This document shows, in pieces, positions 1,610 to 41,090 of a DNA stretch of 64,000 bases (its first letter is position 1; each line of letters starts with the position of its first letter). The stretch spans positions 26,958 to 90,957 of the forward strand of contig DIAQ01000033.1 of assembly GCA_002414865.1 (NCBI GenBank), given 5' to 3'. The notes under the pieces are model-generated. The model was given only the letters and a program-made list of their open reading frames with translations. It did not search any database and had not been told where the DNA came from. The stretch is from a candidate division Hyd24-12 bacterium UBA5074. Lineage in GTDB: Bacteria; Fermentibacterota; Fermentibacteria; Fermentibacterales; Fermentibacteraceae. Made by a program: the position numbers and the translations under genes.

Positions 1610-1679
1610 CAGCCCTGATACCCTCGTCCATAGTACGGACGCGAAGGTGTAATTGTTAACCCGTGAAAGGGGGTTGTTC

Positions 1680-2303
1680 ATGAGAAGGGTGCTTTTCGTA
1701 CTGGCCGCACTGTCGGCCATGGCGTTCGCGAGCGGCAGCAACTTCCTGCTTGACCGCCCGGTAGTCGCCGGTTCGACCGATGACCTTCTTCAGTACGACG
1801 ACGGCAGCGCGTACTGGCTGACCTGGGGTGGTCTCTACAGGGGTACGTGGTTCAACCTCGACGACTTCCTCCCCGGTGGCATGGGCGCCGCCAACAACCT
1901 GCAGTACTGGTTCTACCACCACGCCAGCTATCCCTGGGACACCGCTTCGTTCTACTCCGAGCTCTACAATGGCGATGCGGCCGCCCCTGTGACCCAGCTG
2001 AACCAGACCTCCTGCCTCGCAACCCACTACACTCCGATCACCGCCACCTATGCGACCCCCATCGTCACCGAGTCCGACTTCTGGGGTCTCATCAACACCG
2101 AGATGTCCGCGGGCGGCTGGCCTTCGGTCCTCGGCGACAACAGTGCCGGCTCCGTGAGCCACAGCATGTTCAGCGATGACTTCATCGTCTGGGAGCCCTG
2201 GATCATCAGCGGCTCCTACTCGAACGACTACCTCATCCGCTGCACCTTCACGTTCGGGCTCGAGAGCACTACCTGGGGCGCCATCAAGGGTCTGTACAAC
2301 TAG
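1680..2303 (+). CDS. Hypothetical secreted protein (signal peptide, W/Y/T-rich)
   Basis: ATG at 1680 is preceded by GAAAGGGGG. The N-terminus MRRVLFVLAALSAMAFASG looks like a signal peptide. No recognisable family. Confidence 0.5.
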   Translation: MRRVLFVLAALSAMAFASGSNFLLDRPVVAGSTDDLLQYDDGSAYWLTWGGLYRGTWFNLDDFLPGGMGAANNLQYWFYHHASYPWDTASFYSELYNGDAAAPVTQLNQTSCLATHYTPITATYATPIVTESDFWGLINTEMSAGGWPSVLGDNSAGSVSHSMFSDDFIVWEPWIISGSYSNDYLIRCTFTFGLESTTWGAIKGLYN

Positions 2304-2393
2304 ACAACCCTTGTTCCCGTTCCTTGGGGCGCCGGCTCTTCGGAGCCGGCGCCCTTCTTATGAGGGAGTCTGCCTGATGGAGGACCGGCGCCG

Positions 2394-4115
2394 ATGAGCG
2401 TCATGGTGGCAAGGACTGCAGGTTTCTGCTGGGGGGTCCGACGCGCGGTGGACCTCGTGCTCGCCGAGCTCAAGAGGGGAGGCGGGCCCTGCAGGGTGTC
2501 CGGTCCATTGGTCCACAATCCGCAGGTGCTGGACGCTCTCGCGGAGCGAGGCGTGGAATGCTGCAGGGATACCGGCGAGGTGCGGGGCGGGGTGCTCTTC
2601 CTCCCCACGCACGGCACGACCCTCGAAGAGCGAGGCAGACTCGATGCGCTCGATGTGCGGCTGAGGGATCTGACCTGTCCCAGGGTCGGCAGGGCGCTGG
2701 CCCTCGCCAGGAGGAAGTCGTCCGACGGCTGCAGCGTGATAATCCTGGGCGATCCCGACCATCGCGAGGTCCACGCCCTGAAGTCGTACGGGGGGGAATC
2801 CGCCGTCGTCGTGACGGGCCCGGGCGACGTGGAAGGGCTGCCCGATCTTCAGCGGCCGTTCCTGCTGTCCCAGACCACTCAGGACACCGAGGTCTTCAGG
2901 CGGACGGAGGAGGCTCTCCGGGCCAGGTTCCCCGGTCTCCAGTCCGAGAATACCATCTGCGATTCCACCGGCCTGCGCCAGGAGGAGCTCAGGAAACTGT
3001 GCCCGAAGGCCGACTGCGCGGTCGTGGTCGGCGGCAGGGACAGCGCCAACACCGCGAGGCTCGCGGATATCGCGAAGAGCTGCGGACTGCCGGTCTTCCT
3101 GATCGAGTCCGACGCCGGGCTCGACCCCCGTGCGCTGCAGGGCTACCGGCGGATCCTTGTGACCTCTGGCGCCTCGACCCCCGGCTGGGTGATAAGGAGG
3201 GTGCGGGGCAGGCTGCTCGAGATGCAGGGCGCGACTGCCGGAAGGGCTCTCGAGCTTCTGTCGGACGCGTTCCACGGGAGCTTCCACGTGCTTCCCTCGG
3301 CGTTCCTTCTCGGCACCGCGGGAGCCCTGGCTCTCGGAGGCGCCGGCTGGATGCTGCCTGTGGTGGCCGCCTCCCTCGCCCTCTCGGCGCTCCACATGCT
3401 CAACGCCTTGCTGGAATCGGGATTTTCGCATTCGGTCAGCGTGCAGAGGCATTCCTTCCTCCGCCGCAACAGGGGTCTCCTCACACTCGCGGCAGTTCTC
3501 TCGCTGTGCGGAGCGGCCGCGATCTCGCTCTTCCTCCCTCCGCTCTGGGGTCTCCCGCTGGCGGGAGGCGTGGTGCTCTTCTCGCTCTACTCGATGCCGC
3601 TCATCAGGAATCCTGGAAAGCCCCCGCGCGGCGTGAGGGCGATCCCGGGCTCGCGCGACCTGATCTTCGCCGCCGCCTGGGCATTCCTGCTGTCCCTGCT
3701 CCCCTCGATCTCGCTCGGCATCCCCCGGTGCGGGCTCCCGGGCGTGGCCGCCTGGTCGGCCACCCTGTTCATGCTCCTGCTCGCGAGGTCCATCCTCCTG
3801 GACCTCGTGGATCTCCAGAGCGACGCGATGATGGGCAGGGACACGATCCCGCTGGCACTCGGCTGGGTCTGGAGCCGCATCCTCTTCTGGGCCTGCGTCA
3901 CACTGCCGGTTGTCATCGTCACTGCGTCCGTCGCCTTGGACCTGCTGGCCCTGCCGGCTCTCGGGATCCTGGCCGGATACGCATGGTTGACCGCTGGCTA
4001 TATCGTATTGCGCCGAACACCCTTCCCGTCCGATCTCCTCGCGAGGACTGCCGCTGACGGCAGCCTGCTCGCGGCGGGTATATTACCGCTGCTGCTCGCA
4101 CTGAACGTCCCCTGA
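2394..4115 (+). CDS. ispH: 4-hydroxy-3-methylbut-2-enyl diphosphate reductase (IspH/LytB) fused to a C-terminal polytopic membrane domain resembling UbiA-type prenyltransferases
   Basis: Residues 1-285 are IspH-like (AGFCWGVRRAV, TSGASTPGWVIRRV). A multi-TM region of about 285 aa follows, with a UbiA-like second Asp-rich motif (DLVDLQSDAMMGRDTIPLALG). The first motif looks degenerate (NALLESGFS). Confidence 0.75.
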   Translation: MSVMVARTAGFCWGVRRAVDLVLAELKRGGGPCRVSGPLVHNPQVLDALAERGVECCRDTGEVRGGVLFLPTHGTTLEERGRLDALDVRLRDLTCPRVGRALALARRKSSDGCSVIILGDPDHREVHALKSYGGESAVVVTGPGDVEGLPDLQRPFLLSQTTQDTEVFRRTEEALRARFPGLQSENTICDSTGLRQEELRKLCPKADCAVVVGGRDSANTARLADIAKSCGLPVFLIESDAGLDPRALQGYRRILVTSGASTPGWVIRRVRGRLLEMQGATAGRALELLSDAFHGSFHVLPSAFLLGTAGALALGGAGWMLPVVAASLALSALHMLNALLESGFSHSVSVQRHSFLRRNRGLLTLAAVLSLCGAAAISLFLPPLWGLPLAGGVVLFSLYSMPLIRNPGKPPRGVRAIPGSRDLIFAAAWAFLLSLLPSISLGIPRCGLPGVAAWSATLFMLLLARSILLDLVDLQSDAMMGRDTIPLALGWVWSRILFWACVTLPVVIVTASVALDLLALPALGILAGYAWLTAGYIVLRRTPFPSDLLARTAADGSLLAAGILPLLLALNVP

Positions 4116-4155
4116 ACACCCGCGCCGCCGCGGTGCCGGCATTTGGAGGCCTCAC

Positions 4156-5451
4156 TTGATAGAGCGCTACAGCATCCCCGAGATGGAGGCGATCTGGTCG
4201 GACGAGAACCGCTTCTCGCGCTGGCTGGAGATCGAGCTGCTGGCCGTCGAAGCCCGCTGCGGGCTCGGTGCCGTTCCGAGAGCCGACCTGGATCTGCTGA
4301 GGAGCAAGGCCCGCTTCGACCCGGCCAGGATAGCCGTGATCGAGAACACAGTGAAGCACGATGTGATCGCATTCCTCATGTCGGTTTCGGAGAGCCTGGG
4401 ACCGGAGTCGAGGCATATTCACTATGGGATGACCTCCAGCGACATCCTCGATACCGCACTCGCCACGCAGCTCAGGGATGCGGGAGCGCTGCTGACCGGG
4501 GCGCTCGACGCCTGGGGCGGGTCGCTCGCGGGGCTCGTGAGGAGGACCAGGGGCATCCCCTGCATGGGGCGGACTCATGGAATGCACGCCGAGCCTACCA
4601 CCTTCGCCCTCAAGTTCGCAGGGCACCATGCCGAGTACCGGAGGTGCAGGGAGAGGCTGGAATCGGCGCTCGCAGACGTATGCACGGGCAAGCTCAGCGG
4701 AGCGGTGGGCACCTATGCCCATCTGGATCCCTCGGTGGAGGAGTTCGTCTGCGCGAGGCTGGGCCTCCGGCCTGAAACCGTGGCCACCCAGGTGGTCCCG
4801 CGAGACCGCCACGCGGCGTTCCTTTGGGCCCTGGCCAGCATCGGGGGAGCCCTGGAGCGCTTCGCCACGGAGATCAGGCACCTCCAGAGGACCGAGGTCT
4901 CGGAGGCGGAGGAGCCCTTCGGCAAGGGCCAGAGGGGCTCGAGCGCCATGCCGCATAAGCGGAATCCCATCACCTGCGAGAGGCTCTGCGGGATGGCCCG
5001 CCTCCTCCGGTCCTACCTGCTCGTGGGTCTAGAGGACACCTGCCTCTGGCACGAGCGCGACATCAGCCACTCGTCCGCGGAGAGGTTCGTCCTCCCGGAT
5101 GCCTGCGGCGTGGCCCTCTACTCGCTCAGGAAAGCCTGCGAGGTGGCCGACGGGCTTTGCATCTGCGAACAGGGCGCGATGGGGCACCTGGCCTCGGCGG
5201 GCGACGGCTTCTACTCCCAGACGGTCCTGCTCGCGATGGTCGACTCGGGAGCCGACAGGAACGCTGCATACGCCTCTGTCCAGGCAGCTGCCGCGCGGGC
5301 ATCGGAAGCCGGGAGGAGCTTCGTCGAGGAGGTCTGCGGAGATCCTTCGATAACCGCCGTCCTGCCATCCGGAAGCATCCGCGCCATGTGCAGCCTCGAG
5401 CGGCACCTCAGGCACGAAGGGGATATCCTGAAGCGGGCAGGCCTGGAGTAG
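4156..5451 (+). CDS. purB: Adenylosuccinate lyase
   Basis: The N-terminus MIERYSIPEMEAIWSDENRFSRWLEIELLAVEA is a canonical PurB start. Fumarate-lyase family signature. Confidence 0.93.
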   Translation: MIERYSIPEMEAIWSDENRFSRWLEIELLAVEARCGLGAVPRADLDLLRSKARFDPARIAVIENTVKHDVIAFLMSVSESLGPESRHIHYGMTSSDILDTALATQLRDAGALLTGALDAWGGSLAGLVRRTRGIPCMGRTHGMHAEPTTFALKFAGHHAEYRRCRERLESALADVCTGKLSGAVGTYAHLDPSVEEFVCARLGLRPETVATQVVPRDRHAAFLWALASIGGALERFATEIRHLQRTEVSEAEEPFGKGQRGSSAMPHKRNPITCERLCGMARLLRSYLLVGLEDTCLWHERDISHSSAERFVLPDACGVALYSLRKACEVADGLCICEQGAMGHLASAGDGFYSQTVLLAMVDSGADRNAAYASVQAAAARASEAGRSFVEEVCGDPSITAVLPSGSIRAMCSLERHLRHEGDILKRAGLE

Positions 5452-5541: not shown

Positions 5542-6696
5542 GTGGAAATTCTCATGCTCTTCCTTGGCCTGATCGTCGGCGCGACGGTGGCCTGGCTCTG
5601 GGTCTCGGCCGCGATGAAGCGCAGGCTGCAGGTCGAGGAGGATCGGGCGGCCGGCCTGAACCGCGAGCTGACCACGATCAAGCACGAGAACCGCGAGGTC
5701 TGCTCCAACGTCACCCAGCAGGCGCGGGAGATCCAGAATCATCGCGACCTCGCCGTCCTGCTGCCCGAGCTGGTCAAGCAGATCTTCTCGGCGCGCTCCG
5801 TCAACGAGCTGGCCGACTTCGTGGCCAGGGCAGTCAGCATGATGACGAACACGGAGAAGGTTGCCGTCTTCCTATCCGACAGGACCGGCAGGCGTCTGGG
5901 CCTCGTCGAGGCCAGGGGGCTCTCCGACGTTCTCCAGATGCCGCTCGCATTGAATGTGGGCGAAGGTCATGTCGGCTTCTCCGCCGAGACCGGGAGGGTG
6001 TTCTCCATCGAGGACCTGGAGAAGGAGAGCACTCTCGTCAGGAAGCATATCGAGGACTCGGCCATCCCGGGCTACGCCCCCGAGCTCGCCGCCCCCATGA
6101 CCAGCCAGGGAGTGCTCTACGGAGTGCTCTGCCTCAACGGCATACCCAAGGGGTCCAACCTGGTGAGGGAAAGGGTCCGGGCCATCGCCGCCATCGGGGC
6201 GGCGGCCAGCGAAAACATCAGGCTCCTCGAGAGATTCGAGACCGCTGCGGATCTCGACCCCGACACCGCACTCCCTGGGAAGAGCCAGATGCGCCACCGC
6301 ATGGATTCCGAGCTCGAGAGGGTCAGGCGCTTCAACAGCCCGCTCTCCATCATCGAGCTCCAGCTCCCTCAGGGAGCCTCCACCGACAGGCTCCTCGCCA
6401 AGGAGGTGATGCGCATGTGCGCCAACCAGCTCAAGGCCACCATGCGCAACATCGATACAGGCGTGCGCGTCGCGAGGGACCGGGTGATGCTCCTCCTCCC
6501 GGGCACGAATGCGGAAGGCCTGGTCAGCGTGGTCGCCCGCCTCGGAGTCGACCTCCCGGGCATGACCAACGAGGAGGGCGACAGGATCGCGTCCGTCAGG
6601 ATGCGCTTCCTCACCTGCGAACCCGGTGAGGACCTCTCGGTGGACCCTGTTCTCCAGAGGCTGGATCTGATGGAGTTCAGGGAGTTCTCATCCTGA
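5542..6696 (+). CDS. Membrane-anchored GAF domain protein with degenerate GGDEF-like C-terminal domain
   Basis: N-terminal TM helix, then a coiled coil, then a GAF-like block (VAVFLSDRTGRRLGLVEARGL...GEGHVGFSAETG). The C-terminal region is DGC-like (RFNSPLSIIELQL...RVARDRVMLLLPG) but lacks the GG(D/E)EF motif. Confidence 0.55.
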   Translation: MEILMLFLGLIVGATVAWLWVSAAMKRRLQVEEDRAAGLNRELTTIKHENREVCSNVTQQAREIQNHRDLAVLLPELVKQIFSARSVNELADFVARAVSMMTNTEKVAVFLSDRTGRRLGLVEARGLSDVLQMPLALNVGEGHVGFSAETGRVFSIEDLEKESTLVRKHIEDSAIPGYAPELAAPMTSQGVLYGVLCLNGIPKGSNLVRERVRAIAAIGAAASENIRLLERFETAADLDPDTALPGKSQMRHRMDSELERVRRFNSPLSIIELQLPQGASTDRLLAKEVMRMCANQLKATMRNIDTGVRVARDRVMLLLPGTNAEGLVSVVARLGVDLPGMTNEEGDRIASVRMRFLTCEPGEDLSVDPVLQRLDLMEFREFSS

Positions 6697-9796: not shown

Positions 9797-10323
9797 TGGC
9801 CGTCGTGCGGGCGGCCATAAGGCTCAAGTCGTCGGACCCCGTGGCCGGAACAGCTCTGCGGGCCCTCTCCAGGGCCATGCCGGACTCCTGTCCCGAGGCG
9901 CTCTCCCGCTACGACCTGTGGGAGTTCGACCTCCCGGGCGGCCGCGAGGAGGTCCTGGCCATCCTCGCGAGGTTCCCCGACATATTGAATCCCAACAAAC
10001 AGGAGTGCTTCTTCCCGGAGGAGGGACTCCTGCCGGGTGAGAGCCCCTCGCTGACATGGGTCTCCGTGGAGGTCTCCGAGAGATCAGGCTCCACAGGCTC
10101 CACCTGGAGCCAGGTGATAGGCCGTGCAGGCTTCGAGCTGCGGGGATTGAGGCTCCTGACGCTCTGGAGGCTGGGGTACCCCTCGGCCGTGGGTTCCGCC
10201 CGGGCCCTCGAGGCTGCGGGGGAGACCGCAGTCTCCGTCTCGAGGAACCGCGGGCTGCTTTCCAACCCTGTTTCACAGTCCGCGGAAGTATCGGCCGCAC
10301 TTTCAGGAGCCCGAAGCCTTTGA
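9796..10323 (+). CDS. purS: PurS, tandem-duplicated (two PurS-like repeats in one polypeptide)
   Basis: ATG overlaps the purQ stop. Two consecutive PurS-like segments of about 80 aa each; the second carries the ...LLSNPV signature. Confidence 0.7.
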   Translation: MAVVRAAIRLKSSDPVAGTALRALSRAMPDSCPEALSRYDLWEFDLPGGREEVLAILARFPDILNPNKQECFFPEEGLLPGESPSLTWVSVEVSERSGSTGSTWSQVIGRAGFELRGLRLLTLWRLGYPSAVGSARALEAAGETAVSVSRNRGLLSNPVSQSAEVSAALSGARSL

Positions 10324-12728
10324 CGTCCCCCGTCTCCTGGGAGGACCTCCTCGGAGGGCTCTCCCATCCCCAGCAGTATGTCGGATGCGAGTGGAACACC
10401 GTGGCTGCCAGGTCCGGCCTGGCCGACGTCGCTCTGGTTTATCCGGACATCTACGAGCTCGGGGCGTCCAACTTCGGCCTGTCGGTCGTGCGCCACGCGC
10501 TCCTGCGCTCGGGGGCCTTCAACGTGCGCAGGGCGTTCTGCCCCGCGCCCGATCTGGCCGGCCTCATAGAGTCGGGGAGGAGCCCCTGGCGCTGCGTCGA
10601 GGACGGCTTCCCCGTGGCATCGTGCCGTGTCATCGGATTCGGGGTCCCTTCCGAGGCGCTCTTCTCCAACGTCCTGTTCCTCCTCCGGCTCGCGGGGCTC
10701 CAGACCAGGTCGACCGGCAGGAGGGATTCCGACCCCCTGATCCTGGCAGGCGGAGGGGGCATCTCGAATCCTCTCCCCCTTTCGCCCTTCGTCGACGTCT
10801 TCTTCCTGGGGGAGGCCGAGGAGCAGGCGGCGGCTCTCTTCGAGTCTCTCTCCGGACAGGGCTCCAGGCAGGATAGACTGGAGTCCGCGGCAGGGATACC
10901 GGGCGTCTGGGTCCCCGCCCTCGGGGTGAAGCCCGTCGAGCTCCAGAGGGTGCGCCGGCTGACCATGGAGGATGCTCCGGTAAGGCAGCTCGTCCCGCTC
11001 GCTCAGATATCCCACGACAGGGCCGTCGTGGAGATAGCCCGCGGCTGCACCCGGGGGTGCAGGTTCTGCCAGGCCACGCAGCTGACGCGGCCGGTCAGGG
11101 AGAGGCCGGTAGGGGACGTCCTCGAGCTGGCCGCGTCCTGTCTCAGGCAGACGGGCTGGGAGGAGGCGGGATTCCTGTCGCTCTCCTTCTCGGACTATGG
11201 AGACCTGGACACGCTGCTGGCGGGGGCCTCGAATCTCGAGAGGGAGCTGGGAATAGCGGTTTCCAAGCCTTCGCTGAGGCCGGACAGCTTCGCCAGGCTC
11301 GCAGCGGGGGGCAGGATGCGGGGCAGGGTCACCCTCGCCCCGGAGGCTGGATCGGAAAGGCTCAGATACAGCCTGAATAAGATCCTCCCGGACGATGACA
11401 TCCTCTCGGCTGCCGACACGGCCTTCCGTCTCGGCGCGACCGGGATCAAGCTCTATTTCATGATCGGGCTGCCCGGCGAGTCCTGTGAAGATCTCGACGC
11501 CATGGTCGAGCTCCTCGGGAGGCTGCGGAGCGTCGCCGCGTCCAGGGGCCGCAGGGGGCGGGACGTGATCGGAGCAGCCCTCTCGCCGTTCGTCCCCAAG
11601 CCGCACACTCCTCTTCAGTGGGCTCCGCAGCTCGCCCCCGACGAGGTCCGCGGCAGGATCGAGCGCATCTGCTCGGCCATAAGGTGGGGGAAGCCGGGAT
11701 GGAACGACCCGAGACTCGCCCTCCTCGAGGCGGTTCTCGGCCTGGGTGATGGGCACGGGACGGCAGACATGCTCGAAGAGGCCGTCCTCACCGGGGCGAG
11801 GTTCGATGCCTGGAGCGATCGCTTCCGGTGGGACATCTGGGAGCCGGTCCTCCGGAGTGGAGGAGCCTTCTCGCCGGATGGCCCCCAGGCCGGCCGGGAC
11901 CCCTCTGCCGATCTCCCCTGGAGCTTCGTCAGGGCGGGGTCATCAGTCGAGTTCCTCCGCGCCGAGTACGGGCGGTTCCTGGCGGGCGTGCCCACCCCTG
12001 ACTGCAGGGAGGCCGGATGCTCGGGCTGCGGTGCATGCCGGGACGCCGGGACAGTCGGAGAGGTGGCGACAGGAGGCCTGGAGTCCGGGAACCCCGCCGT
12101 GCCCGCCCTCGCAAAGGCGCAGCACCAGCCGGTGGCCGTCCTCAGGATTCGATGGGGGAGGCACGGGCTGGCGAGATTCTCGTCCCACCTCGACATGGTG
12201 AGGCTCTGGACCAGAACGATCAGGAGGTCGGGGCTCCCCGCCGCCGGCAGGGGCGACTTCGTCAGGCGCCTGAGGGTCCGCTTCGGACCGGCGTTGCCGC
12301 TGGGGTTTGAGAGCGGGGCCGAAGTTCTGGATATTCTGCTGGAGGCGGTGCCTGCCCCGGGCGCCCTTGCGGCGCTCGCCGCGGCCCTGCCGCAGGGCTT
12401 CGAGATCTGCGAGGGACGCCTGCTGCCCCCTGGTGCGGGGGCGCCCGACGCGGAGGCGGAAGTGGCCGAGTACGAGTTCACCGGGGCCGAGGATGGCCCC
12501 TTGCGGGAAGTCCTCTCCCGGGCGCCGGGAATTGTGTTGTCCGGCGCAGGAGCGGACGGGAAGACCCGCGCGATGATCGGGCTGGGAGGCGGTTCGCCGA
12601 GGGTGGACAGGCTCCTCTCCGAAGCGGGCGTCCGGGTTGGCCTCATAAAGAGGACCGGGCTCTTCGCGCTGCGTGGAGGGGAACCGACCCCGCTGCTGTC
12701 TCTCCATGAGGGGGATGATCTCACTTGA
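10320..12728 (+). CDS. TIGR03960-like B12-binding-domain radical SAM protein fused to DUF2344 (TIGR03936-like) domain
   Basis: TTG start overlaps the purS stop (TTGA). The N-terminal motif is LLGGLSHPQQYVGCEWN. The radical-SAM CxxxCxxC is IARGCTRGCRFC. The C-terminal region (RIRWGRHGLARFSSHLDMVRLW) is DUF2344-like. No ATG lies near the annotated start. Confidence 0.75.
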   Translation: MTSPVSWEDLLGGLSHPQQYVGCEWNTVAARSGLADVALVYPDIYELGASNFGLSVVRHALLRSGAFNVRRAFCPAPDLAGLIESGRSPWRCVEDGFPVASCRVIGFGVPSEALFSNVLFLLRLAGLQTRSTGRRDSDPLILAGGGGISNPLPLSPFVDVFFLGEAEEQAAALFESLSGQGSRQDRLESAAGIPGVWVPALGVKPVELQRVRRLTMEDAPVRQLVPLAQISHDRAVVEIARGCTRGCRFCQATQLTRPVRERPVGDVLELAASCLRQTGWEEAGFLSLSFSDYGDLDTLLAGASNLERELGIAVSKPSLRPDSFARLAAGGRMRGRVTLAPEAGSERLRYSLNKILPDDDILSAADTAFRLGATGIKLYFMIGLPGESCEDLDAMVELLGRLRSVAASRGRRGRDVIGAALSPFVPKPHTPLQWAPQLAPDEVRGRIERICSAIRWGKPGWNDPRLALLEAVLGLGDGHGTADMLEEAVLTGARFDAWSDRFRWDIWEPVLRSGGAFSPDGPQAGRDPSADLPWSFVRAGSSVEFLRAEYGRFLAGVPTPDCREAGCSGCGACRDAGTVGEVATGGLESGNPAVPALAKAQHQPVAVLRIRWGRHGLARFSSHLDMVRLWTRTIRRSGLPAAGRGDFVRRLRVRFGPALPLGFESGAEVLDILLEAVPAPGALAALAAALPQGFEICEGRLLPPGAGAPDAEAEVAEYEFTGAEDGPLREVLSRAPGIVLSGAGADGKTRAMIGLGGGSPRVDRLLSEAGVRVGLIKRTGLFALRGGEPTPLLSLHEGDDLT

Positions 12729-14257
12729 AATCGGATTTCATTGTCAACTCGCATCCTGATGTGACGCGGATAGCGATCCTCGAGGACGGCCGGCTCATGG
12801 AGCTGATCGTCGAGAAGACCGAGGAGAAGCGCATCGTCGGCAACATCTATCTGGGGCGCGTGAACGCCGTGCTGCCTGGGATGCAGGCCGCATTCGTGGA
12901 CATTGGCCTCGAGCGGAGCGCCTTCCTGCACTCCTCCGACGTGAGGAGCGGGGTGATCGATGCGAAGGCCTTCGCCCAGTCCCTCGTGGAGGAGAAGCCC
13001 CTTCCCGCAGAGGAGTCCAACCAGCCCATCGAGGACCTCCTGCGCCGGGGGCAGGACATACTCGTCCAGGTGACGAAGGAGCCGATCGGCACCAAGGGGG
13101 CGCGCGTCAGCTCCAGGATCTCGATCGCCGGGAGATACGTGGTCAGCATGCCGGGCGACCCGGTCGCGGGCGTGTCCCGGAAGATAGGCGACAGGAAGGA
13201 GCGGACCCGCCTCCGCGAGATCGTCCAGAGGATGCGCGGCGAAGGCTTCGGCATCATCGCGAGGACTGCGGGGACCGATCAGAGCGAGGATGCCTTCAAG
13301 TCGGACGTGGAGAGGATCATCGACCGCTGGAAGGAGATAGGGGAGCTCACGCTCCGCTCCAGGGCGCCGGCCCTGCTACACCAGGAGTACGACATCATCA
13401 CGATGACGATGCGCGACCTGGTCTCCGCCGAGATGAGCTCCTTCGTGACCGATTCGAAGGACGTCTTCTCGATAGCGCGGACCTACATGAAGCGGATCAC
13501 GCCCGACATGTCGGCGCGCGTGAGGCTCTACAGGGGCAAGACCCCGATCTTCGACCAGTACGGGGTGGAGCAGGAGATAGTGCAGATACTCAACAGGGAG
13601 GTGCCTCTCAAGAGCGGCGGCTCCCTCGTGATCGACCAGACAGAGGCGCTCGTGGCCATCGATGTGAACACCCGTCGATACGTCGGCAAGAGGAGCCAGG
13701 AGAACACTATCCTGAAGACGAACCTCGAGGCCGCCAAGGAGGTCGCGCGGCAGCTCCGGCTGAGGGACATCGGTGGGATCATCGTCATAGACTTCATCGA
13801 CATGGACATCGAGGACCACAGGGAGAAGGTCGTGAACTCCCTCCGCAGCGAGCTGGGGCGTGACAGGTCTCCCACGAAGACATGCCAGGTCAGCTCGCTC
13901 GGCCTGGTCGAGATGACCCGCAAGAGGGTGAGACCCAGCCTCGTGCAGGCTCTCTCGGAGCCCTGCCCGCACTGCGGCGGAACCGGCAGGGTGCTCTCGG
14001 CGCTCTCGGCCGCCACGCGGCTCGAGCGCCTCCTCGAGAGGGCGTCTCTCCAGAAGAACCACAGGAACATCGTCGTCTCGATCCATCCCGACCTGTCCGA
14101 GTATCTCATGAGGGATGACGGCAGGCGGATGGATCACATCCTGGAAAAGGCGAAGCTCGCGGTGGAGTTTCATGAGGACAGGAGGATGAAGGTCGACCAG
14201 TTCAGGGTGTTCTCCCTGGACACGCACGAGGAGATCACCTCGCTGTACGACTCATGA
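12725..14257 (+). CDS. rng: Rne/Rng family ribonuclease (RNase G-like)
   Basis: S1 domain (NIYLGRVNAVLPGMQAAFVDIG) plus an RNase E/G catalytic core. Start overlaps the upstream stop. Confidence 0.9.
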   Translation: MKSDFIVNSHPDVTRIAILEDGRLMELIVEKTEEKRIVGNIYLGRVNAVLPGMQAAFVDIGLERSAFLHSSDVRSGVIDAKAFAQSLVEEKPLPAEESNQPIEDLLRRGQDILVQVTKEPIGTKGARVSSRISIAGRYVVSMPGDPVAGVSRKIGDRKERTRLREIVQRMRGEGFGIIARTAGTDQSEDAFKSDVERIIDRWKEIGELTLRSRAPALLHQEYDIITMTMRDLVSAEMSSFVTDSKDVFSIARTYMKRITPDMSARVRLYRGKTPIFDQYGVEQEIVQILNREVPLKSGGSLVIDQTEALVAIDVNTRRYVGKRSQENTILKTNLEAAKEVARQLRLRDIGGIIVIDFIDMDIEDHREKVVNSLRSELGRDRSPTKTCQVSSLGLVEMTRKRVRPSLVQALSEPCPHCGGTGRVLSALSAATRLERLLERASLQKNHRNIVVSIHPDLSEYLMRDDGRRMDHILEKAKLAVEFHEDRRMKVDQFRVFSLDTHEEITSLYDS

Positions 14258-34414: not shown

Positions 34415-35728
34415 ATGGGGAAACGCAGAACCTTTTCGGGGGGGGCGCACCCTGACGAGCGCAAGGAGCTGGCCGAGCACAGCGCCGTTCGGAAGCTGCC
34501 CGCGCCGAAGGTGATCCGGGTGGCCCTGTGCCAGCATCTCGGAGCCCCCTCGACGCCGCTTGTCGCCAAGGGTGACAGGGTTACGCGCGGCCAGGAGATC
34601 GGTGCTCAGAACGGCTTCATCAGCCTGCCCACCCATTCTCCGGTCGGCGGAACCGTGCTGGCTCTCGAGGATGCGGCGCTGCCGCACAGGAGGTCTGGCC
34701 CCACGATCGTGATCGAGACCTCTTCGGAGGAGGGAGGCGCGGTATTCGAGCCCTGGCCCGAATACTCCAGCCGTTCTCCCCAGGAGGTCATCGAGAGGAT
34801 AAGGGCTGCCGGAGTCTGCGGAATGGGGGGCGCGAGCTTCCCCACCCATGTCAAGCTCTCCCCGCCCAGGGACAAGAAGGTCGACACCCTCATCCTCAAC
34901 GGCGCCGAGTGCGAACCCTACCTCACCTCGGACGCCCGCCTGATGGTCGAGCGCACGGCCGACGTCATCGATGGGATGAGGATCCTGGCCCACGCTCTCG
35001 GAGTCGGGCGGGTCTTCGCGGGCGTCGAGGCCAACAAGCCGGAGGCAGCCGCCGCTCTCGAGGGAGCCGGCGCGGAAGTCATCACTCTGAAGGTGAAGTA
35101 TCCGCAGGGCGCCGAGAAGCAGCTGATCAAGGCCGTCACCGGGCGCGAGGTGCCGGTGGGAGGCCTTCCCATGGATGTCGGAGTCGTCGTGCAGAACGTC
35201 GGGACGGCGGCCGCAGCTGCAGAGGCCGTTCGCGACGGCATGCCCTGCATGCGGCGCATAGTCACCGTCTCGGGCGGTGGGATAAAGGCACCCGGCAATT
35301 TCGACGCATGCGTCGGCACCTCCTTCGCGGATCTCGTCGAGGCTGCGGGGGGCTACTCCGGAGAAGTCGTCAGGCTGCTCTCCGGAGGACCCATGATGGG
35401 CATCGCTCAGTTCACCGACGCCGTGCCCGTGACGAAGGGGACCAGCGGGATCGTCGCGCTGACCTCGCGCGAGGCGAGGTCGCTCTCCGAGGGTCCGTGC
35501 ATCAGGTGCGGGAAATGCGTGGACGCATGCCCGATGGGTCTGGCCCCGTGTCTCATCTCGGAAGCCGCGGAGCACTCCGGCTGGAAGTCGGCCGACGAAG
35601 CCGGCGCCCTGAGCTGCATGGCCTGCGGCACCTGCACCTTCGTCTGCCCCAGCTCCCGCTTCCTCGTCCATTACATCAAGAGGGCCCAGGAGGCAATCCG
35701 CGCCTCCAAGCGCTCCAGGGAGGCATGA
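34415..35728 (+). CDS. rnfC: Rnf electron transport complex subunit C
   Basis: GMGGASFPTHVKL NADH/FMN site. Two 4Fe-4S CxxCxxCxxxCP motifs. Confidence 0.9.
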   Translation: MGKRRTFSGGAHPDERKELAEHSAVRKLPAPKVIRVALCQHLGAPSTPLVAKGDRVTRGQEIGAQNGFISLPTHSPVGGTVLALEDAALPHRRSGPTIVIETSSEEGGAVFEPWPEYSSRSPQEVIERIRAAGVCGMGGASFPTHVKLSPPRDKKVDTLILNGAECEPYLTSDARLMVERTADVIDGMRILAHALGVGRVFAGVEANKPEAAAALEGAGAEVITLKVKYPQGAEKQLIKAVTGREVPVGGLPMDVGVVVQNVGTAAAAAEAVRDGMPCMRRIVTVSGGGIKAPGNFDACVGTSFADLVEAAGGYSGEVVRLLSGGPMMGIAQFTDAVPVTKGTSGIVALTSREARSLSEGPCIRCGKCVDACPMGLAPCLISEAAEHSGWKSADEAGALSCMACGTCTFVCPSSRFLVHYIKRAQEAIRASKRSREA

Positions 35729-36804
35729 TGGCTGAACCGCGCCTCTTCCAGCTGTCCATGTCGCCTCATGTGACATCGCCGCTCAACACGCGGCGGGTGA
35801 TGCTCGACGTGGTGACGGCCCTGCTGCCCGCCCTGGCGGGCGCGATCTGGTTCTTCGGCTTCGTCGACTCTCTGCTGCCCGTCCTCGTGAGCGTCGTCAC
35901 GGCCGTGGCTGCCGAGTACTTCTGCCTCAGGATAATGAAGCGGCCCGTGAACGCCGCGCTGGACGGCAGCGCGATCGTGACCGGCCTTCTGCTGGCCTAC
36001 AACCTGCCGCCGGGAGTCCCCTGGTGGCTGCCCGTCATCGGCTCGGGCTTCGCCATCGTGGTGGCCAAGCAGGCCTTCGGAGGTCTGGGGCACAACATGA
36101 TCAACCCAGCCCTGCTCGGCCGGGCCTTCCTGATGGCGAGCTTCCCGGTCCTGATGACATCCGGATGGCAGGCCCCCTTCGAGTGGAGCGCGCCGGAATC
36201 CCACTTCGAGACGTCCGGCATACCCGTGGAGAACCTGCAGGCCATCCCTGACGCCGACGCCATCTCCGGTGCCACGCCGCTGCGGGTGATGAAGGACTCC
36301 TTCACAATGGAGCGGCACCGCGGCAACGCCGTGAGGGCGCAGCTCGCGAGCGAGGGCACCTACCTCAACCTCTTCCTCGGTCGCCGCGGAGGCTGCATTG
36401 GGGAGACCTCGGGCCTCCTGCTCCTGCTGGGGGCGATCTACCTCGTGGTCCGCGGCGTCCTGGAGCTGAGGCTCCCGCTTAGCTACCTCGGCTCCGTGGC
36501 CCTCTTCGGATGGATCATCGGCGGCCCGGGCCTGCTCCAGGGGGATCCCCTGTTTTCCGTGCTCGCAGGCGGGGTGATCCTGGGCGGCTTCTTCATGGTC
36601 ACGGACATGGTCACCACGCCGGTCACGCCCTGGGGCAAGATCCTGTTCGGCTTCCTGGCCGGTTTCATCACGATCGTCATTCGACGCTGGGGAGGCTATC
36701 CGGAAGGATGCTCATACTCCATCCTCATCATGAACCTCGCCACGCCGCTGCTCGACCGGTTCACCCGGCCGAGGATCCTCGGGGAGGTGGGGAAGCATGC
36801 GTGA
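35725..36804 (+). CDS. rnfD: Rnf complex subunit D
   Basis: ATG overlaps the rnfC stop. NqrB/RnfD polytopic membrane protein. Confidence 0.88.
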   Translation: MMAEPRLFQLSMSPHVTSPLNTRRVMLDVVTALLPALAGAIWFFGFVDSLLPVLVSVVTAVAAEYFCLRIMKRPVNAALDGSAIVTGLLLAYNLPPGVPWWLPVIGSGFAIVVAKQAFGGLGHNMINPALLGRAFLMASFPVLMTSGWQAPFEWSAPESHFETSGIPVENLQAIPDADAISGATPLRVMKDSFTMERHRGNAVRAQLASEGTYLNLFLGRRGGCIGETSGLLLLLGAIYLVVRGVLELRLPLSYLGSVALFGWIIGGPGLLQGDPLFSVLAGGVILGGFFMVTDMVTTPVTPWGKILFGFLAGFITIVIRRWGGYPEGCSYSILIMNLATPLLDRFTRPRILGEVGKHA

Positions 36805-37411
36805 GATGATGCGCCTCGGCCTCATCCTGATGGGCATGAGTCTCATCTGCGCCGCTGCCCTGGGCTTCGTCAACAACCAGACGGAGGACAGGATCGCCGC
36901 CCAGAAGGAGCTCATCCGCCAGCAGGCCATGCAGTCCGTGTCGGCCTCCTTCGGTTCCGACCTCGAGTTCGACTCGCTGTCGGTGGCAGGCCTGGCCAAC
37001 CCCTACGAGGAGACAGGCAGGGTTCTGACCCCCATGGAGATCGTCTCCGGCGGCAGGCGGGTGGGCTTCGTGTTCACGGCCTACCGCAAGGGCTACTCGA
37101 GCGTCATCGAGACCCTCGTCGCGGTCGACACCACCGGGGTGATCTGCGGCAGCAGCATCCTCTACCAGTCCGAGACGCCGGGCCTGGGCACGAAGGCGCA
37201 GGCGCCCGAGTGGATGGCGCAGCTCGCCGGCCGTGACGAGAACGCCCTCGCCGTGGACAAGGACGGCGGGGAGATACACTCCATCACCGGGGCCACCGTC
37301 AGCTCCAGGGCGATAGTCGGCTCGGTCGCCGAGGGCCTGGAGGCCATGAGGGCGGCGGGGCTGTTCGTCGCAGGAGCCCCTGCCGCAGCTGCTGCCGGAG
37401 GTGCTGAATGA
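36797..37411 (+). CDS. rnfG: Rnf complex subunit G (FMN-binding)
   Basis: SITGATVSSRA FMN-attachment motif. Confidence 0.88.
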   Translation: MREMMRLGLILMGMSLICAAALGFVNNQTEDRIAAQKELIRQQAMQSVSASFGSDLEFDSLSVAGLANPYEETGRVLTPMEIVSGGRRVGFVFTAYRKGYSSVIETLVAVDTTGVICGSSILYQSETPGLGTKAQAPEWMAQLAGRDENALAVDKDGGEIHSITGATVSSRAIVGSVAEGLEAMRAAGLFVAGAPAAAAAGGAE

Positions 37412-38016
37412 GCAGGTGGAAGGATCTCACCAACGGGTTCTACACCGAGAACCCGATCTTCAGGATCACACTCGGGATGTGTCCCTTCCTCGCCCTCAGC
37501 ACCTCGGTGCAGAACGCGGTCGGGATGGGCTCTGCAGCCACTTTCGTGCTCATCTGGTCGAACGTGGCGATCTCCGCGCTCCGCAACTTCATACCGGACA
37601 AGATCCGGATTCCGTGCTACATCGTCTTCATCGCAACCTTCGTGAGCCTGGTCGACATGGTCATGGCCGCGTTCATGCCACCTCTCCACAAGGCACTCGG
37701 CATCTACATCCCGCTCATCGTGGTCAACTGCATCATCCTGGGCCGCGCCGAGGCCTTCGCGAACAAGAACACGGTCATGAGCTCGTTCCTCGACGGCATC
37801 GGGATGGGAGTGGGCTTCACCCTCGCCATGCTCCTGATGGCCTCGATCAGGGAGATCCTCGGCAACGGCACATGGTACGGCATCAACATCCTGGGCCATG
37901 CCTACACCAGCCAGCCTGTGCTGCTCGCCATCCTCCCGCCGGGAGCCTTCATACTGATGGGCTTCGTGCTCGGCGTCTTCGCCATCATCGACCGCAGGAA
38001 GGAGCGTGCAGCGTGA
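37408..38016 (+). CDS. rnfE: Rnf complex subunit E
   Basis: NPIFRITLGMCPFLA is an RnfE/NqrD signature. Confidence 0.88.
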   Translation: MSRWKDLTNGFYTENPIFRITLGMCPFLALSTSVQNAVGMGSAATFVLIWSNVAISALRNFIPDKIRIPCYIVFIATFVSLVDMVMAAFMPPLHKALGIYIPLIVVNCIILGRAEAFANKNTVMSSFLDGIGMGVGFTLAMLLMASIREILGNGTWYGINILGHAYTSQPVLLAILPPGAFILMGFVLGVFAIIDRRKERAA

Positions 38017-38651
38017 GCCCGGCTCTACTGCTCTCGGCGGCCGTCTCTTCCACCGGTGCGGGAGACGGGGGCTTCGCCCAGATCATGGGTCTCGTGATAG
38101 GCGGCATCCTGATCAACAACTACGTCCTGTCGCGATTCCTCGGCATCTGCCCGTTCCTCGGGGTCTCGAAGCAGCTCGACTCGGCCATCGGCATGGGCGC
38201 CGCCGTGGTTTTCGTCATGGCGATGACCGGTGCGGCGTGCTGGGCTCTCTGGGAGCTGGTCCTGATCCCGATGCACCTCGAGTACCTTAGCACGATCGTC
38301 TTCATCCTCATCATCGCCGCCCTGGTCCAGCTCGTGGAGATGATCCTGCTGAAATACAGCCCCGCCCTCTACAAGGCCCTCGGGATCTATCTCCCGCTCA
38401 TCACGACGAACTGCGCCGTCCTCGGCGTCGCAGTTCTCAACAAGGACGCCGGCTACAACCTGGCGATGAGCGTCATCAATGCAGTGTCGGGCGCCCTCGG
38501 GTTCGGCCTGGCTCTCATCCTGATGGCCGGCTTGAGGATGAGGATGGAGTACTCGGACATCCCCCTGGCCCTAAGAGGAAAACCCATCACCTTCATCCTC
38601 GCGGGCCTCATGTCCATAGCCTTCCTCGGCTTCGCCGGGCTGGGGGTGTAG
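38013..38651 (+). CDS. rnfA: Rnf complex subunit A
   Basis: GTG overlaps the rnfE stop. NNYVLSRFLGICPFLGVS is an RnfA/NqrE signature. Confidence 0.88.
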   Translation: MSPALLLSAAVSSTGAGDGGFAQIMGLVIGGILINNYVLSRFLGICPFLGVSKQLDSAIGMGAAVVFVMAMTGAACWALWELVLIPMHLEYLSTIVFILIIAALVQLVEMILLKYSPALYKALGIYLPLITTNCAVLGVAVLNKDAGYNLAMSVINAVSGALGFGLALILMAGLRMRMEYSDIPLALRGKPITFILAGLMSIAFLGFAGLGV

Positions 38652-38652
38652 G

Positions 38653-41080: not shown

Positions 41081-41090
<10 letters not shown>

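What the first reader, a model, noticed from the sequence alone, without database searches (positions are those of the whole stretch)
2394..4115. IspH fused to a UbiA-like polytopic membrane domain
A single 573-aa ORF joins a complete IspH (the last MEP-pathway enzyme, making IPP/DMAPP) to a membrane domain of about 285 aa. Its loop D-L-V-D-L-Q-S-D-A-M-M-G-R-D-T resembles the second Asp-rich motif of UbiA prenyltransferases. The first NDxxDxxxD motif appears degenerate.

Known IspH fusions are to ribosomal protein S1, not to a membrane domain. A fusion that tethers IPP/DMAPP synthesis to a prenyl-utilising membrane enzyme would be a new arrangement.
Basis: partly seen in the sequence, partly recalled or inferred. 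Interest (0 to 1): 0.6.

Follow-up and report, generated by a model that had tools for sequence, protein, structure and literature searches.

The report
Known IspH–UbiA fusion, Fermentibacteria version
This gene really does join the last enzyme of the bacterial isoprenoid-precursor pathway (IspH) to a nine-helix UbiA-type membrane domain, but this fusion type was published in 2015, so this is a divergent new-phylum member of a known, still uncharacterised family.

Summary
The 573-aa ORF at 2394..4115 (+) is real. Residues 1-280 are a complete IspH. Residues ~299-571 fold confidently (pLDDT 93) into a nine-helix UbiA-type domain. Its best structural matches are archaeal DGGGP synthase, UBIAD1 and the archaeal UbiA homologues.

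The fusion is not an assembly or frameshift artefact. The same uninterrupted ORF, in the same gene neighbourhood, occurs in a closed Candidatus Fermentibacteria chromosome and in Ca. Fermentibacter daniensis. About 80 further full-length Fermentibacteria-tier proteins carry it.

The novelty claim fails. IspH-UbiA fusions were described by Rao et al. 2015 (Chem Sci, PMC4746011): 47 sequences, mostly Desulfobacterales, function unknown. An exhaustive profile search with the C-terminal domain finds 484 relatives. All 76 listed hits of at least 530 aa are IspH fusions.

What is new is modest:
- The fusion occurs across a fermentative phylum rather than in sulfate reducers.
- The first Asp-rich motif is even more degenerate (N-A-L-L-E...R) than in the rest of the family.
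- The second motif (R465, D470, D473, D477, G481, T484, P486, G490) is invariant.

Most likely this is a membrane-tethered IspH coupled to an uncharacterised prenyl-diphosphate-binding enzyme. A non-catalytic anchor or sensor role is not excluded.

The parts
2394..4115 (+). Whole ispH-ubiA-like fusion gene (573 aa plus stop)
   Evidence: ORF list. A 100% identical protein P0152 and about 80 full-length Fermentibacteria-tier homologues exist. The full-length AF2 model has pLDDT 92.6 and pTM 0.87.
2379..2383 (+). GGAGG ribosome-binding-site-like sequence, 10 nt upstream of the ATG
   Evidence: Read directly from the sequence. The N-terminus MSV(M/T)VAR..GFCWGV is conserved in L003 and L004.
2394..3224 (+). 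IspH (LytB) domain, residues 1-277
   Evidence: PF02401 E=3e-69. TIGR00216 scores 211 bits, above its 187.85 cutoff. It aligns end to end with A. aeolicus IspH 3DNF (E=2.6e-44) and E. coli IspH.
2427..2429 (+). Cys12, first [4Fe-4S] ligand (GFCWGV)
   Evidence: Aligned to the cluster Cys of 3DNF and E. coli IspH. Invariant in 97 sequences.
2676..2678 (+). Cys95, second [4Fe-4S] ligand (TCP)
   Evidence: invariant C95.
2958..2960 (+). Cys189, third [4Fe-4S] ligand (NTICD)
   Evidence: invariant C189.
3225..3287 (+). Linker, residues 278-298, including a predicted pre-membrane helix (280-294)
   Evidence: Secondary structure and pLDDT of 81-94 in the full-length model. There is no stop or frame change. 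The same junction is continuous in L002, L003 and L004.
3288..4106 (+). UbiA-superfamily nine-helix membrane domain, residues 299-571
   Evidence: AF2 model pLDDT 93.4 and pTM 0.91, with nine long helices. Foldseek top hits are DGGGP synthase 7bpu/6m31, UBIAD1 8djk_B, AfUbiA 4tq3 and ApUbiA 4od5, at TM 0.54-0.58. The positive-inside count is 8 K/R against 1. The Pfam UbiA match is sub-threshold, but all 21 sampled family members match PF01040.
3393..3458 (+). Remnant of the first Asp-rich motif, residues 334-355: H-M-L-N337-A-L-L-E341-S-G-F-S-H-S-V-S-V-Q-R352-H-S-F355
   Evidence: The spacing N(0)...acidic(+4)...R(+15) matches the DGGGPS motif N-D-I-F-D-I-E-I-D-R-I-N-K-P-S-R shown.
3588..3659 (+). 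Cytoplasmic loop 4-5 motif, residues 399-422: Y399...R415-A-I-P-G-S-R421-D
   Evidence: Y399 97%, P418 95%, S420 96% and K/R421 100% across the fusion family. In the Fermentibacteria tier Y399, G419 and R421 are invariant, and P418 (73/76) and S420 (72/76) nearly so.
3786..3863 (+). Second Asp-rich motif, residues 465-490: R-S-I-L-L-D470-L-V-D473-L-Q-S-D477-A-M-M-G481-R-D483-T-I-P-L-A-L-G490
   Evidence: Aligned to the second motif of 6m31 and 4od4. R465, D470, D473, D477, G481, T484, P486 and G490 are each 76/76 in the Fermentibacteria tier; D483 is 73/76. These positions are 86-99% conserved family-wide.

Best explanation
The gene encodes a membrane-tethered, probably bifunctional IspH of the published IspH-UbiA fusion family, in its Candidatus Fermentibacterota form.

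Shown:
- Residues 1-277 are a complete IspH with all three [4Fe-4S] cysteines and the conserved substrate-site residues. It should reduce HMBPP to IPP and DMAPP in the cytoplasm.
- A short helical linker leads into a nine-helix UbiA-fold domain with its N-terminus inside the cell.
- The conserved polar residues of this domain (E341, R352, Y399, R421, R465, D470, D473, D477, D483) lie in, or at the membrane-proximal ends of, the cytoplasmic loops, on the same side as IspH.
- The two domains are predicted with high overall confidence as one body.

Inferred:
- The domain still binds a Mg2+-prenyl diphosphate through its invariant second Asp-rich motif.
- It transfers the prenyl group to an unidentified lipophilic acceptor. 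Its nearest characterised relatives are archaeal DGGGP synthases.
- The fusion keeps isoprenoid-diphosphate supply next to the membrane enzyme.

I put about 0.95 on membership of the IspH-UbiA fusion family. I put about 0.5 on the C-terminal domain being a catalytically active prenyltransferase. The overall confidence given (0.6) is for the combined statement.
For: Domain identities.

Reality of the fusion.

Homology of the membrane domain to other fused domains:
- The exhaustive profile search gave 484 hits at E<1e-3 and 133 at E<1e-10.
- All 76 listed hits of at least 530 aa carry N-terminal IspH.
- All 21 sampled members match PF01040, the best at 7.7e-19.
- The nearest NCBIfam models are PRK13591 prenyltransferase and the DGGGP synthase models.

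Fold and topology:
- C-terminal domain model pLDDT 93.4 and pTM 0.91.
- Foldseek top hits are UbiA-superfamily structures.
- The positive-inside count is 8 against 1.

Conservation of cavity and loop residues holds despite only 20-25% overall identity in the domain. The second motif is invariant in 76 Fermentibacteria-tier sequences. This argues for a ligand-binding or catalytic site rather than a mere anchor.

The full-length model has pTM 0.87.

Prior literature: PMC4746011.
Against: - The canonical first Asp-rich motif, needed for Mg2+/diphosphate binding in characterised UbiA enzymes (established knowledge of ApUbiA and AfUbiA), is largely lost. Family-wide, D(+1) is usually R or H and D(+8) is variable. 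In the Fermentibacteria tier N337 is T in 50/76 and the N-D-P element is gone.
- The window's domain scores below Pfam's UbiA threshold.
- No activity has ever been shown for any member; expression failed in Rao et al. 2015.
- No isoprenoid or lipid genes are conserved next to the gene in any lineage examined.
- Fermentibacteria are described as non-respiring fermenters (PMC5030696), so a quinone acceptor is unlikely and no acceptor can be named.
Confidence: 0.6

Rival explanations
1. The UbiA-like domain is a non-catalytic derivative (pseudoenzyme). It would serve as a membrane anchor or as an isoprenoid-diphosphate sensor or regulator. In that role it would place IspH at the membrane, for example near ferredoxin-generating complexes, or tune its activity.
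For: The first Asp-rich motif has lost two of three Asp family-wide. In the Fermentibacteria tier it has lost nearly everything except E341 and R352. Rao et al. also raised localisation and sensor roles. The window encodes Rnf subunits and the lineage relies on reduced ferredoxin. The membrane domain evolves faster than the IspH domain, scoring 117-275 against 303-405 bits among close relatives.
Against: A simple anchor would not keep R465, D470, D473, D477, G481, T484, P486, G490, Y399 and K/R421 at 86-100% across a family that is otherwise only 20-25% identical. A sensor role is compatible with that conservation, so only the pure-anchor version is disfavoured.
Confidence: 0.3
2. The fusion is an assembly join or a sequencing frameshift that merged ispH with a downstream membrane-protein gene.
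For: One related record (L001, GCA_022707065.1) has a run of N exactly at the domain junction, and its annotation calls only a 210-aa C-terminal piece.
Against: Uninterrupted 573-581-aa ORFs occur in the window, in a closed 2.52-Mb chromosome (L003) and in Ca. F. daniensis (L004, which fills the N gap of L001). A JGI fragment (L002) also spans the junction. About 80 full-length Fermentibacteria-tier and 79 more distant full-length fusions were found. The linker is predicted as structured helix.
Confidence: 0.01
3. The C-terminal domain belongs to an unrelated polytopic membrane family, and the UbiA resemblance is due to chance or composition.
For: The window's own Pfam score is below threshold (24.8 and 20.8 bits against 34.2). 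A 3-sequence profile found nothing in the PDB.
Against: Transitive homology: all 21 sampled relatives match PF01040, down to 7.7e-19. The family profile aligns motif 2 to 6m31 and 4od4. The high-confidence model's best PDB matches are UbiA-superfamily enzymes over about 300 aligned columns. The motif-1 spacing N(0)/acidic(+4)/N(+11)/P(+13)/R(+15) in the wider family matches DGGGPS.
Confidence: 0.02

Closest known systems
IspH-UbiA 'Rosetta stone' fusion proteins (Rao et al. 2015, Chem Sci 6:6813, PMC4746011; classed there as CDD PT_UbiA_5)
   Same: The architecture is the same: a complete IspH at the N-terminus and a nine-helix UbiA-like domain at the C-terminus, about 570-590 aa in total. The C-terminal domains are homologous. 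All carriers are anaerobes. Function is unknown in both cases.
   Different: The host is a fermentative FCB-group phylum (Ca. Fermentibacterota) rather than sulfate reducers. Identity to the Desulfobacca, Desulfobaccales and Nitrospinae fusions is only about 30-35%. The paper states that two DxxxD repeats are present. Here the first-motif region keeps only N337, E341 and R352 and has lost the N-D-P element that 18-20 of 20 non-Fermentibacteria fusions retain. Clade-specific changes include K421R, E483D and an F544-P545 motif.
Archaeal digeranylgeranylglyceryl phosphate (DGGGP) synthase (PDB 6m31, 7bpu)
   Same: It is the best structural match (Foldseek E=3.8e-4, TM about 0.55) and the best PDB sequence match of the family profile (E=0.004). 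It shares the D-x-x-D-x-x-x-D-x-x-x-G form of the second motif. DGGGPS-type NCBIfam models are among the nearest.
   Different: Identity is only about 12%. DGGGPS has an intact N-D-x-x-D-x-x-x-D first motif and is not fused to IspH. No NCBIfam cutoff is approached. No evidence was found here that the organism makes isoprenoid ether lipids.
Canonical UbiA/MenA quinone prenyltransferases (ApUbiA 4od4/4od5; MenA NF004751)
   Same: UbiA fold, cytoplasm-facing Asp-rich loop and weak profile matches.
   Different: The first motif is not conserved. The host lineage is reported to lack respiration genes. Rao et al. note that fusion carriers have a separate UbiA/MenA. A quinone role is therefore unlikely.
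IspH-RPS1 fusions (NCBIfam NF000907)
   Same: The IspH half matches the IspH part of this model well (224 bits over positions 1-281). It is also an anaerobe-associated IspH fusion.
   Different: The partner domain is soluble S1 repeats, not a membrane domain. The full-model cutoff of 624 bits is not met.

Membership tests
IspH / LytB (HMBPP reductase) | Sequence-model membership (Pfam PF02401 gathering score; TIGR00216 equivalog cutoff) | tested here: met
   PF02401 scores 233.7 bits against 24.5. TIGR00216 scores 211 bits against 187.85.
IspH / LytB (HMBPP reductase) | Three conserved Cys ligands of the [4Fe-4S] cluster and the conserved His/Glu/Thr/Ser/Asn substrate-site residues | tested here: met
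   C12, C95 and C189 are present, together with H41, H73, H123, E125, T161/T162, S217, N219 and S261. They align to 3DNF and E. coli IspH. All are invariant in the 97-sequence alignment.
IspH / LytB (HMBPP reductase) | HMBPP reductase activity | not testable with these tools
   This needs an enzyme assay or complementation of E. coli delta-ispH.
UbiA superfamily (homology and fold) | Pfam PF01040 gathering score for this sequence | tested here: not met
   24.8 bits for the full protein and 20.8 bits for the domain alone, against 34.2.
UbiA superfamily (homology and fold) | Homology demonstrable through intermediate sequences | tested here: met
   All 21 sampled relatives of the domain match PF01040, the best at 7.7e-19. 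The family profile hits 6m31 and 4od4.
UbiA superfamily (homology and fold) | Nine-transmembrane-helix UbiA fold with cytoplasmic loops 2-3, 4-5 and 6-7 | tested here: met
   The model has pLDDT 93.4 and nine helices. The best PDB matches are 7bpu, 6m31, 8djk_B, 4tq3 and 4od5, at TM 0.54-0.58. The positive-inside rule holds, 8 against 1. The TM-scores are only moderate.
Canonical (catalytically typical) UbiA prenyltransferases | First Asp-rich motif N-D-x-x-D-x-x-x-D in loop 2-3 | tested here: not met
   The window reads N337-A-L-L-E341-S-G-F-S345. Only N(0) and an acidic residue at +4 remain. In 50 of 76 Fermentibacteria-tier sequences even N is T.
Canonical (catalytically typical) UbiA prenyltransferases | Second Asp-rich motif (D-x-x-x-D, with following G and T/S) in loop 6-7 | tested here: met
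   D470-L-V-D473-L-Q-S-D477-A-M-M-G481-R-D483-T484 aligns to the second motif of 6m31 and 4od4. Apart from D483 (73/76), these motif residues are invariant in the Fermentibacteria tier.
Canonical (catalytically typical) UbiA prenyltransferases | Mg2+-dependent prenyl transfer to an acceptor | not testable with these tools
IspH-UbiA fusion family (Rao et al. 2015) | Single polypeptide with IspH at the N-terminus and a UbiA-like domain at the C-terminus | tested here: met
   The architecture is conserved in independent assemblies.
IspH-UbiA fusion family (Rao et al. 2015) | The C-terminal domain is most closely related to the C-terminal domains of other IspH-UbiA fusions | tested here: met
   The exhaustive profile search shows that all 76 listed hits of at least 530 aa have N-terminal IspH, and 16 shorter fragments do too. 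Fusions annotated Desulfobacca, Desulfobaccales and Nitrospinae follow the Fermentibacteria hits.
IspH-UbiA fusion family (Rao et al. 2015) | Two DxxxD repeats in the UbiA-like domain (as stated in the paper) | tested here: not met
   Only the second is present. The first region has a single acidic residue, E341. In my sample the wider family also lacks a canonical first motif: acidic at +4 in 67% and at +8 in 16%.
IspH-UbiA fusion family (Rao et al. 2015) | Assignment to CDD subgroup PT_UbiA_5 | not testable with these tools
   No CDD library was available.
IspH-UbiA fusion family (Rao et al. 2015) | Common origin of the fusion event (congruent IspH and UbiA phylogenies) | tested here: inconclusive
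   Stand-alone IspH of Desulfobulbaceae and Desulfurivibrio score up to 250 bits. The IspH halves of the non-Fermentibacteria fusions sampled score roughly 155-231 bits. The NJ tree with 100 bootstraps supports the Fermentibacteria clade at 100% but nothing deeper, with support of 17% or less.

The most novel reading that the evidence does not exclude
In Ca. Fermentibacterota the fused UbiA-fold domain has abandoned the canonical two-metal diphosphate site. The changes are N337 to T, D(+1) to A or S, and loss of the N-D-P element. It still keeps an invariant second motif and packs rigidly against IspH. It could therefore be a neofunctionalised module. One possibility is a one-metal prenyltransferase that takes DMAPP (or even HMBPP) directly from the IspH active site. 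Another is an isoprenoid-diphosphate sensor that gates IspH at the membrane. Either would be a mechanism not described for any UbiA-superfamily member.
Probability: 0.2. Interest if true: 0.55.

Novelty: new member of a known kind. Interest (0 to 1): 0.25.

Why it matters
The architecture itself is not new. What this window adds is the following.

- **Wider distribution.** The IspH-UbiA fusion is far more widespread than the 47 mostly Desulfobacterales sequences known in 2015. It amounts to hundreds of 50%-identity clusters.
- **A new physiological setting.** Every IspH homologue annotated as Fermentibacteria, Aegiribacteria or Sabulitectum that I found is a fusion. This is a fermentative, non-respiring phylum. 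That weakens any link to sulfate reduction or quinones and narrows the possible roles of the membrane domain.
- **Targets for experiment.** The contrast between an invariant second motif and a decaying first motif gives concrete residues for mutagenesis.

The biochemical function of the fused domain has been an open, modest-sized question for a decade. If it were solved, it could reveal a new membrane isoprenoid product or a new way of controlling the last MEP-pathway step.

Tried and rejected
- **Assembly or frameshift artefact:** rejected.
- **Word-indexed search with the C-terminal domain alone:** it gave only 2 hits and wrongly suggested extreme rarity. The exhaustive profile search and the full-length search corrected this.
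- **PDB sequence search with a 3-sequence profile:** nothing found. A 21-sequence profile gave only weak hits at motif 2.
- **Genomic context as a clue to function:**
  - The Fermentibacteria neighbourhood is housekeeping: pheST, uvrB, secreted protein, the fusion, purB, GAF-GGDEF, purL, purQ.
  - Three distant fusion loci share no neighbours.
  - No other isoprenoid gene appeared among 20 large ORFs of the window.
- **Apparent stand-alone relatives:**
  - P0267 is merely cut by a contig end.
  - P0012 lies at a contig edge.
  - P0082 is a genuine 294-aa stand-alone homologue next to a second UbiA gene, but is uninformative.
- **IspH-domain NJ phylogeny to test a single origin of the fusion:** unresolved.
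- **Rao & Oldfield 2016 (PMC4961616):** not held.
- **D'Angelo et al. 2022 (PMC8896826):** it tested NadA and IspG of Ca. F. daniensis, not IspH.
- **Literature after 2015:** no characterisation of the fused domain turned up.
Full report
**1. The observation**

The ORF at 2394..4115 on the + strand (ATG start, 573 aa) exists exactly as described.
- A GGAGG lies 10 nt upstream of the ATG. A perfect 12-bp GC-rich hairpin follows the preceding gene.
- Pfam places LYTB/IspH on residues 3-273 (E=3e-69). NCBIfam TIGR00216 passes its equivalog cutoff, 211 against 187.85 bits.
- The domain aligns end to end with Aquifex aeolicus IspH 3DNF (E=2.6e-44) and with E. coli IspH.
- The three cluster cysteines (C12, C95, C189) are present. 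So are the conserved H41, H73, H123, E125, T161/162, S217, N219 and S261. All are invariant in a 97-sequence alignment.
- The C-terminal half gives only a sub-threshold UbiA match: PF01040, 24.8 bits against a gathering score of 34.2, on residues 360-542.

**2. Is the fusion real?**

Yes.
- A syntenic locus in NCBI assembly GCA_022707065.1 (L001) has the gene order pheS, pheT, uvrB, secreted protein, the fusion, purB, GAF-GGDEF, purL, purQ. It carries a 581-aa ORF interrupted only by a run of N.
- The same ORF is uninterrupted in Ca. Fermentibacter daniensis (L004, 581 aa) and in a closed 2.52-Mb Candidatus Fermentibacteria chromosome (L003, 580 aa).
- A JGI metagenome fragment (L002) also spans the junction.
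- A full-length search returned a 100% identical protein. It also returned many 570-580-aa proteins at 43-67% identity. Those with a source name are called IspH from Ca. Fermentibacteria, Aegiribacteria, Sabulitectum or Fermentibacteraceae. I counted 80 such full-length fusions.
- The lineage is the FCB-group phylum Ca. Fermentibacterota.

**3. What the membrane domain is**

I built an alignment of the window's C-terminal domain with 96 homologues. AlphaFold2 on this alignment gives a confident model (pLDDT 93.4, pTM 0.91) with nine long helices.

Its best matches among solved structures are all UbiA-superfamily enzymes:
- DGGGP synthase 7bpu (E=3.8e-4) and 6m31
- UBIAD1 8djk_B
- AfUbiA 4tq3
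- ApUbiA 4od5
- the membrane phosphoribosyltransferase 8j8j

These have TM-scores of 0.54-0.58 over about 300 aligned columns. Soluble trans-prenyl synthases follow. The TM-scores are moderate rather than high.

Loop charges obey the positive-inside rule, with 8 K/R against 1, for an N-in topology. This fits a cytoplasmic Fe-S domain attached to helix 1.

The window's own sequence scores below Pfam's threshold, but all 21 sampled relatives match PF01040 (best 7.7e-19). The family profile aligns its D-x-x-D-x-x-x-D-x-x-x-G-x-x-T loop to the second Asp-rich motif of 6m31 and 4od4. The nearest NCBIfam models are an archaeal-type prenyltransferase (PRK13591) and the DGGGP synthase models. None comes near its cutoff.

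**4. It belongs to a published fusion family**

[quoted passage not shown] That paper:
- reports 47 IspH proteins with a C-terminal UbiA-like domain, mainly in Desulfobacterales, classed as PT_UbiA_5;
- models one on ApUbiA;
- proposes that IspH supplies IPP/DMAPP locally or that the domain localises IspH to the membrane;
- reports failure to express intact protein.

The window's domain is homologous to that family. An exhaustive HMMER search of 1.84 billion cluster representatives with the C-terminal profile found 484 proteins at E<1e-3 and 133 at E<1e-10. Among the 150 listed hits, all 76 of at least 530 aa have an N-terminal IspH, as do 16 shorter fragments. Beyond the Fermentibacteria tier, the best full-length hits (30-37% identity) are fusions annotated Nitrospinae, Desulfobaccales and Desulfobacca. 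No later paper characterising the domain was found.

**5. The motifs**

Across the fusion family the loop 6-7 motif is strongly conserved: R465, D470, D473, Q475, D477, G481, E/D483, T484, P486 and G490, at 74-99%. So are Y399, P418, S420 and K/R421 in loop 4-5.

The first motif is non-canonical in the whole family. DGGGPS reads N-D-I-F-D-I-E-I-D-R-I-N-K-P-S-R (shown). Relative to that, the family keeps N(0) at 89%, an acidic residue at +4 at 67%, N(+11) at 51%, P(+13) at 74% and R/K(+15) at 83%. It has R or H at +1 and no conserved acid at +8.

The Fermentibacteria tier goes further:
- N337 is T in 50 of 76 sequences; the window keeps N.
- Position +1 is A or S.
- The N-D-P element is lost.
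- E341 (71/76) and R352 (74/76) remain.
- R465, D470, D473, D477, G481, T484, P486 and G490 are each 76/76.

**6. How it probably works**

Shown:
- an intact IspH;
- a UbiA-fold domain whose conserved polar residues face the cytoplasm;
- a structured helical linker (pLDDT 81-94);
- a full-length model with pTM 0.87. For a two-domain protein this implies a confidently fixed mutual arrangement. PAE was not available, so this is an inference.

Inferred: the domain binds a Mg2+-prenyl diphosphate through the second motif and transfers the prenyl group to an unknown lipophilic acceptor, with IspH held beside it.

The conservation pattern argues against a pure anchor. The loss of most first-motif acids argues against a textbook two-metal UbiA mechanism, so a sensor, regulator or pseudoenzyme role stays open (my estimate about 0.3).

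A quinone acceptor is unlikely. The lineage is described as fermentative without respiration genes (PMC5030696). Rao et al. also note separate UbiA/MenA genes in fusion carriers.

Genomic context gives no help. Neighbours are housekeeping genes in Fermentibacteria and are not conserved in three distant fusion loci. Twenty other large ORFs of the window include Rnf subunits, SelB, a radical-SAM protein and PBP2, but no isoprenoid genes.

**7. Origin of the fusion**

This is not settled. Stand-alone IspH proteins of Desulfobulbaceae and Desulfurivibrio score up to 250 bits against the window's IspH half. That is slightly more than the IspH halves of the non-Fermentibacteria fusions sampled, which score roughly 155-231 bits. 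A neighbour-joining tree with 100 bootstraps supports the Fermentibacteria clade at 100% but resolves nothing deeper. A sequence that looked like a stand-alone close relative (P0267) is simply cut by a contig end. One genuine stand-alone homologue of the membrane domain exists (P0082, 294 aa), next to a second UbiA gene.

**8. Verdict**

The novelty claim is not: this is a divergent, new-phylum member of the known IspH-UbiA fusion family. The proteins are already in public databases, annotated simply as IspH. Interest is low to moderate. The remaining open question is the function of the fused domain, unanswered since 2015. This lineage's contrast between an invariant second motif and an eroded first motif gives that question a slightly sharper handle.

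Noticed in passing
window 2327-2359: A perfect 12-bp GC-rich hairpin (GGGCGCCGGCTC-TTCG-GAGCCGGCGCCC) followed by TTCTT lies between the stop of the upstream 216-aa gene (2303) and the ispH-ubiA start. It looks like an intrinsic terminator, but the simple scan missed it because the T-run is short.
   Followed up: partly
window 1653-2303 (+); L001 4065-4748; L003 6302-6904; L004 6320-7003: A 200-227-aa protein with an N-terminal signal-like hydrophobic segment and no Pfam match. It is conserved immediately upstream of the fusion gene in every Fermentibacteria locus examined. Its function is unknown.
   Followed up: partly
L001 about 5640-5900 (GCA_022707065.1): A run of N sits exactly on the IspH/UbiA junction. 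As a result the record's gene calls split the fusion into a spurious 247-aa out-of-frame ORF and a 210-aa C-terminal piece (P0002). A 706-aa protein annotated Ca. F. daniensis (P0245) combines LYTB with PheT B5 domains and is probably a similar annotation or assembly chimera.
   Followed up: partly
window 5542-6696 (+); L005 4614-6743 and 9858-12563; L007 699-2681: Cyclic-nucleotide signalling genes lie near the fusion gene in unrelated lineages. These are a GAF-GGDEF protein two genes downstream here, HAMP-PAS-GGDEF and PAS-GGDEF-EAL proteins flanking it in a Nitrospinae genome, and a dCache-HAMP guanylate/adenylate cyclase in another locus. This may be coincidence.
   Followed up: no
window 34909-39708 (+): An Rnf-type cluster: an RnfD-like protein (631-aa ORF, domain at residues 282-625), an Rnf-Nqr membrane subunit, and an RnfB-like polyferredoxin. 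This is consistent with ferredoxin-based energy metabolism. Two of the listed ORFs extend far upstream of their Pfam-matched regions, so the true starts may lie further downstream.
   Followed up: partly
window 41081-42958 (+): A SelB-type selenocysteine-specific elongation factor, implying that this organism uses selenoproteins.
   Followed up: no
window 10056-12728 (+): A large 890-aa radical-SAM protein (Radical_SAM_N2 + Radical_SAM + DUF2344) directly upstream of an RNase E/G gene at 12725-14257.
   Followed up: no
window 2558-4057 (+), 2358-3452 (-), 3919-4956 (-): Very long alternative-frame ORFs (499, 364 and 345 aa) overlap the fusion gene. In this 66% GC sequence they are expected by chance and have no homology support. 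They are a reminder that ORF length alone is not evidence of a gene here.
   Followed up: partly
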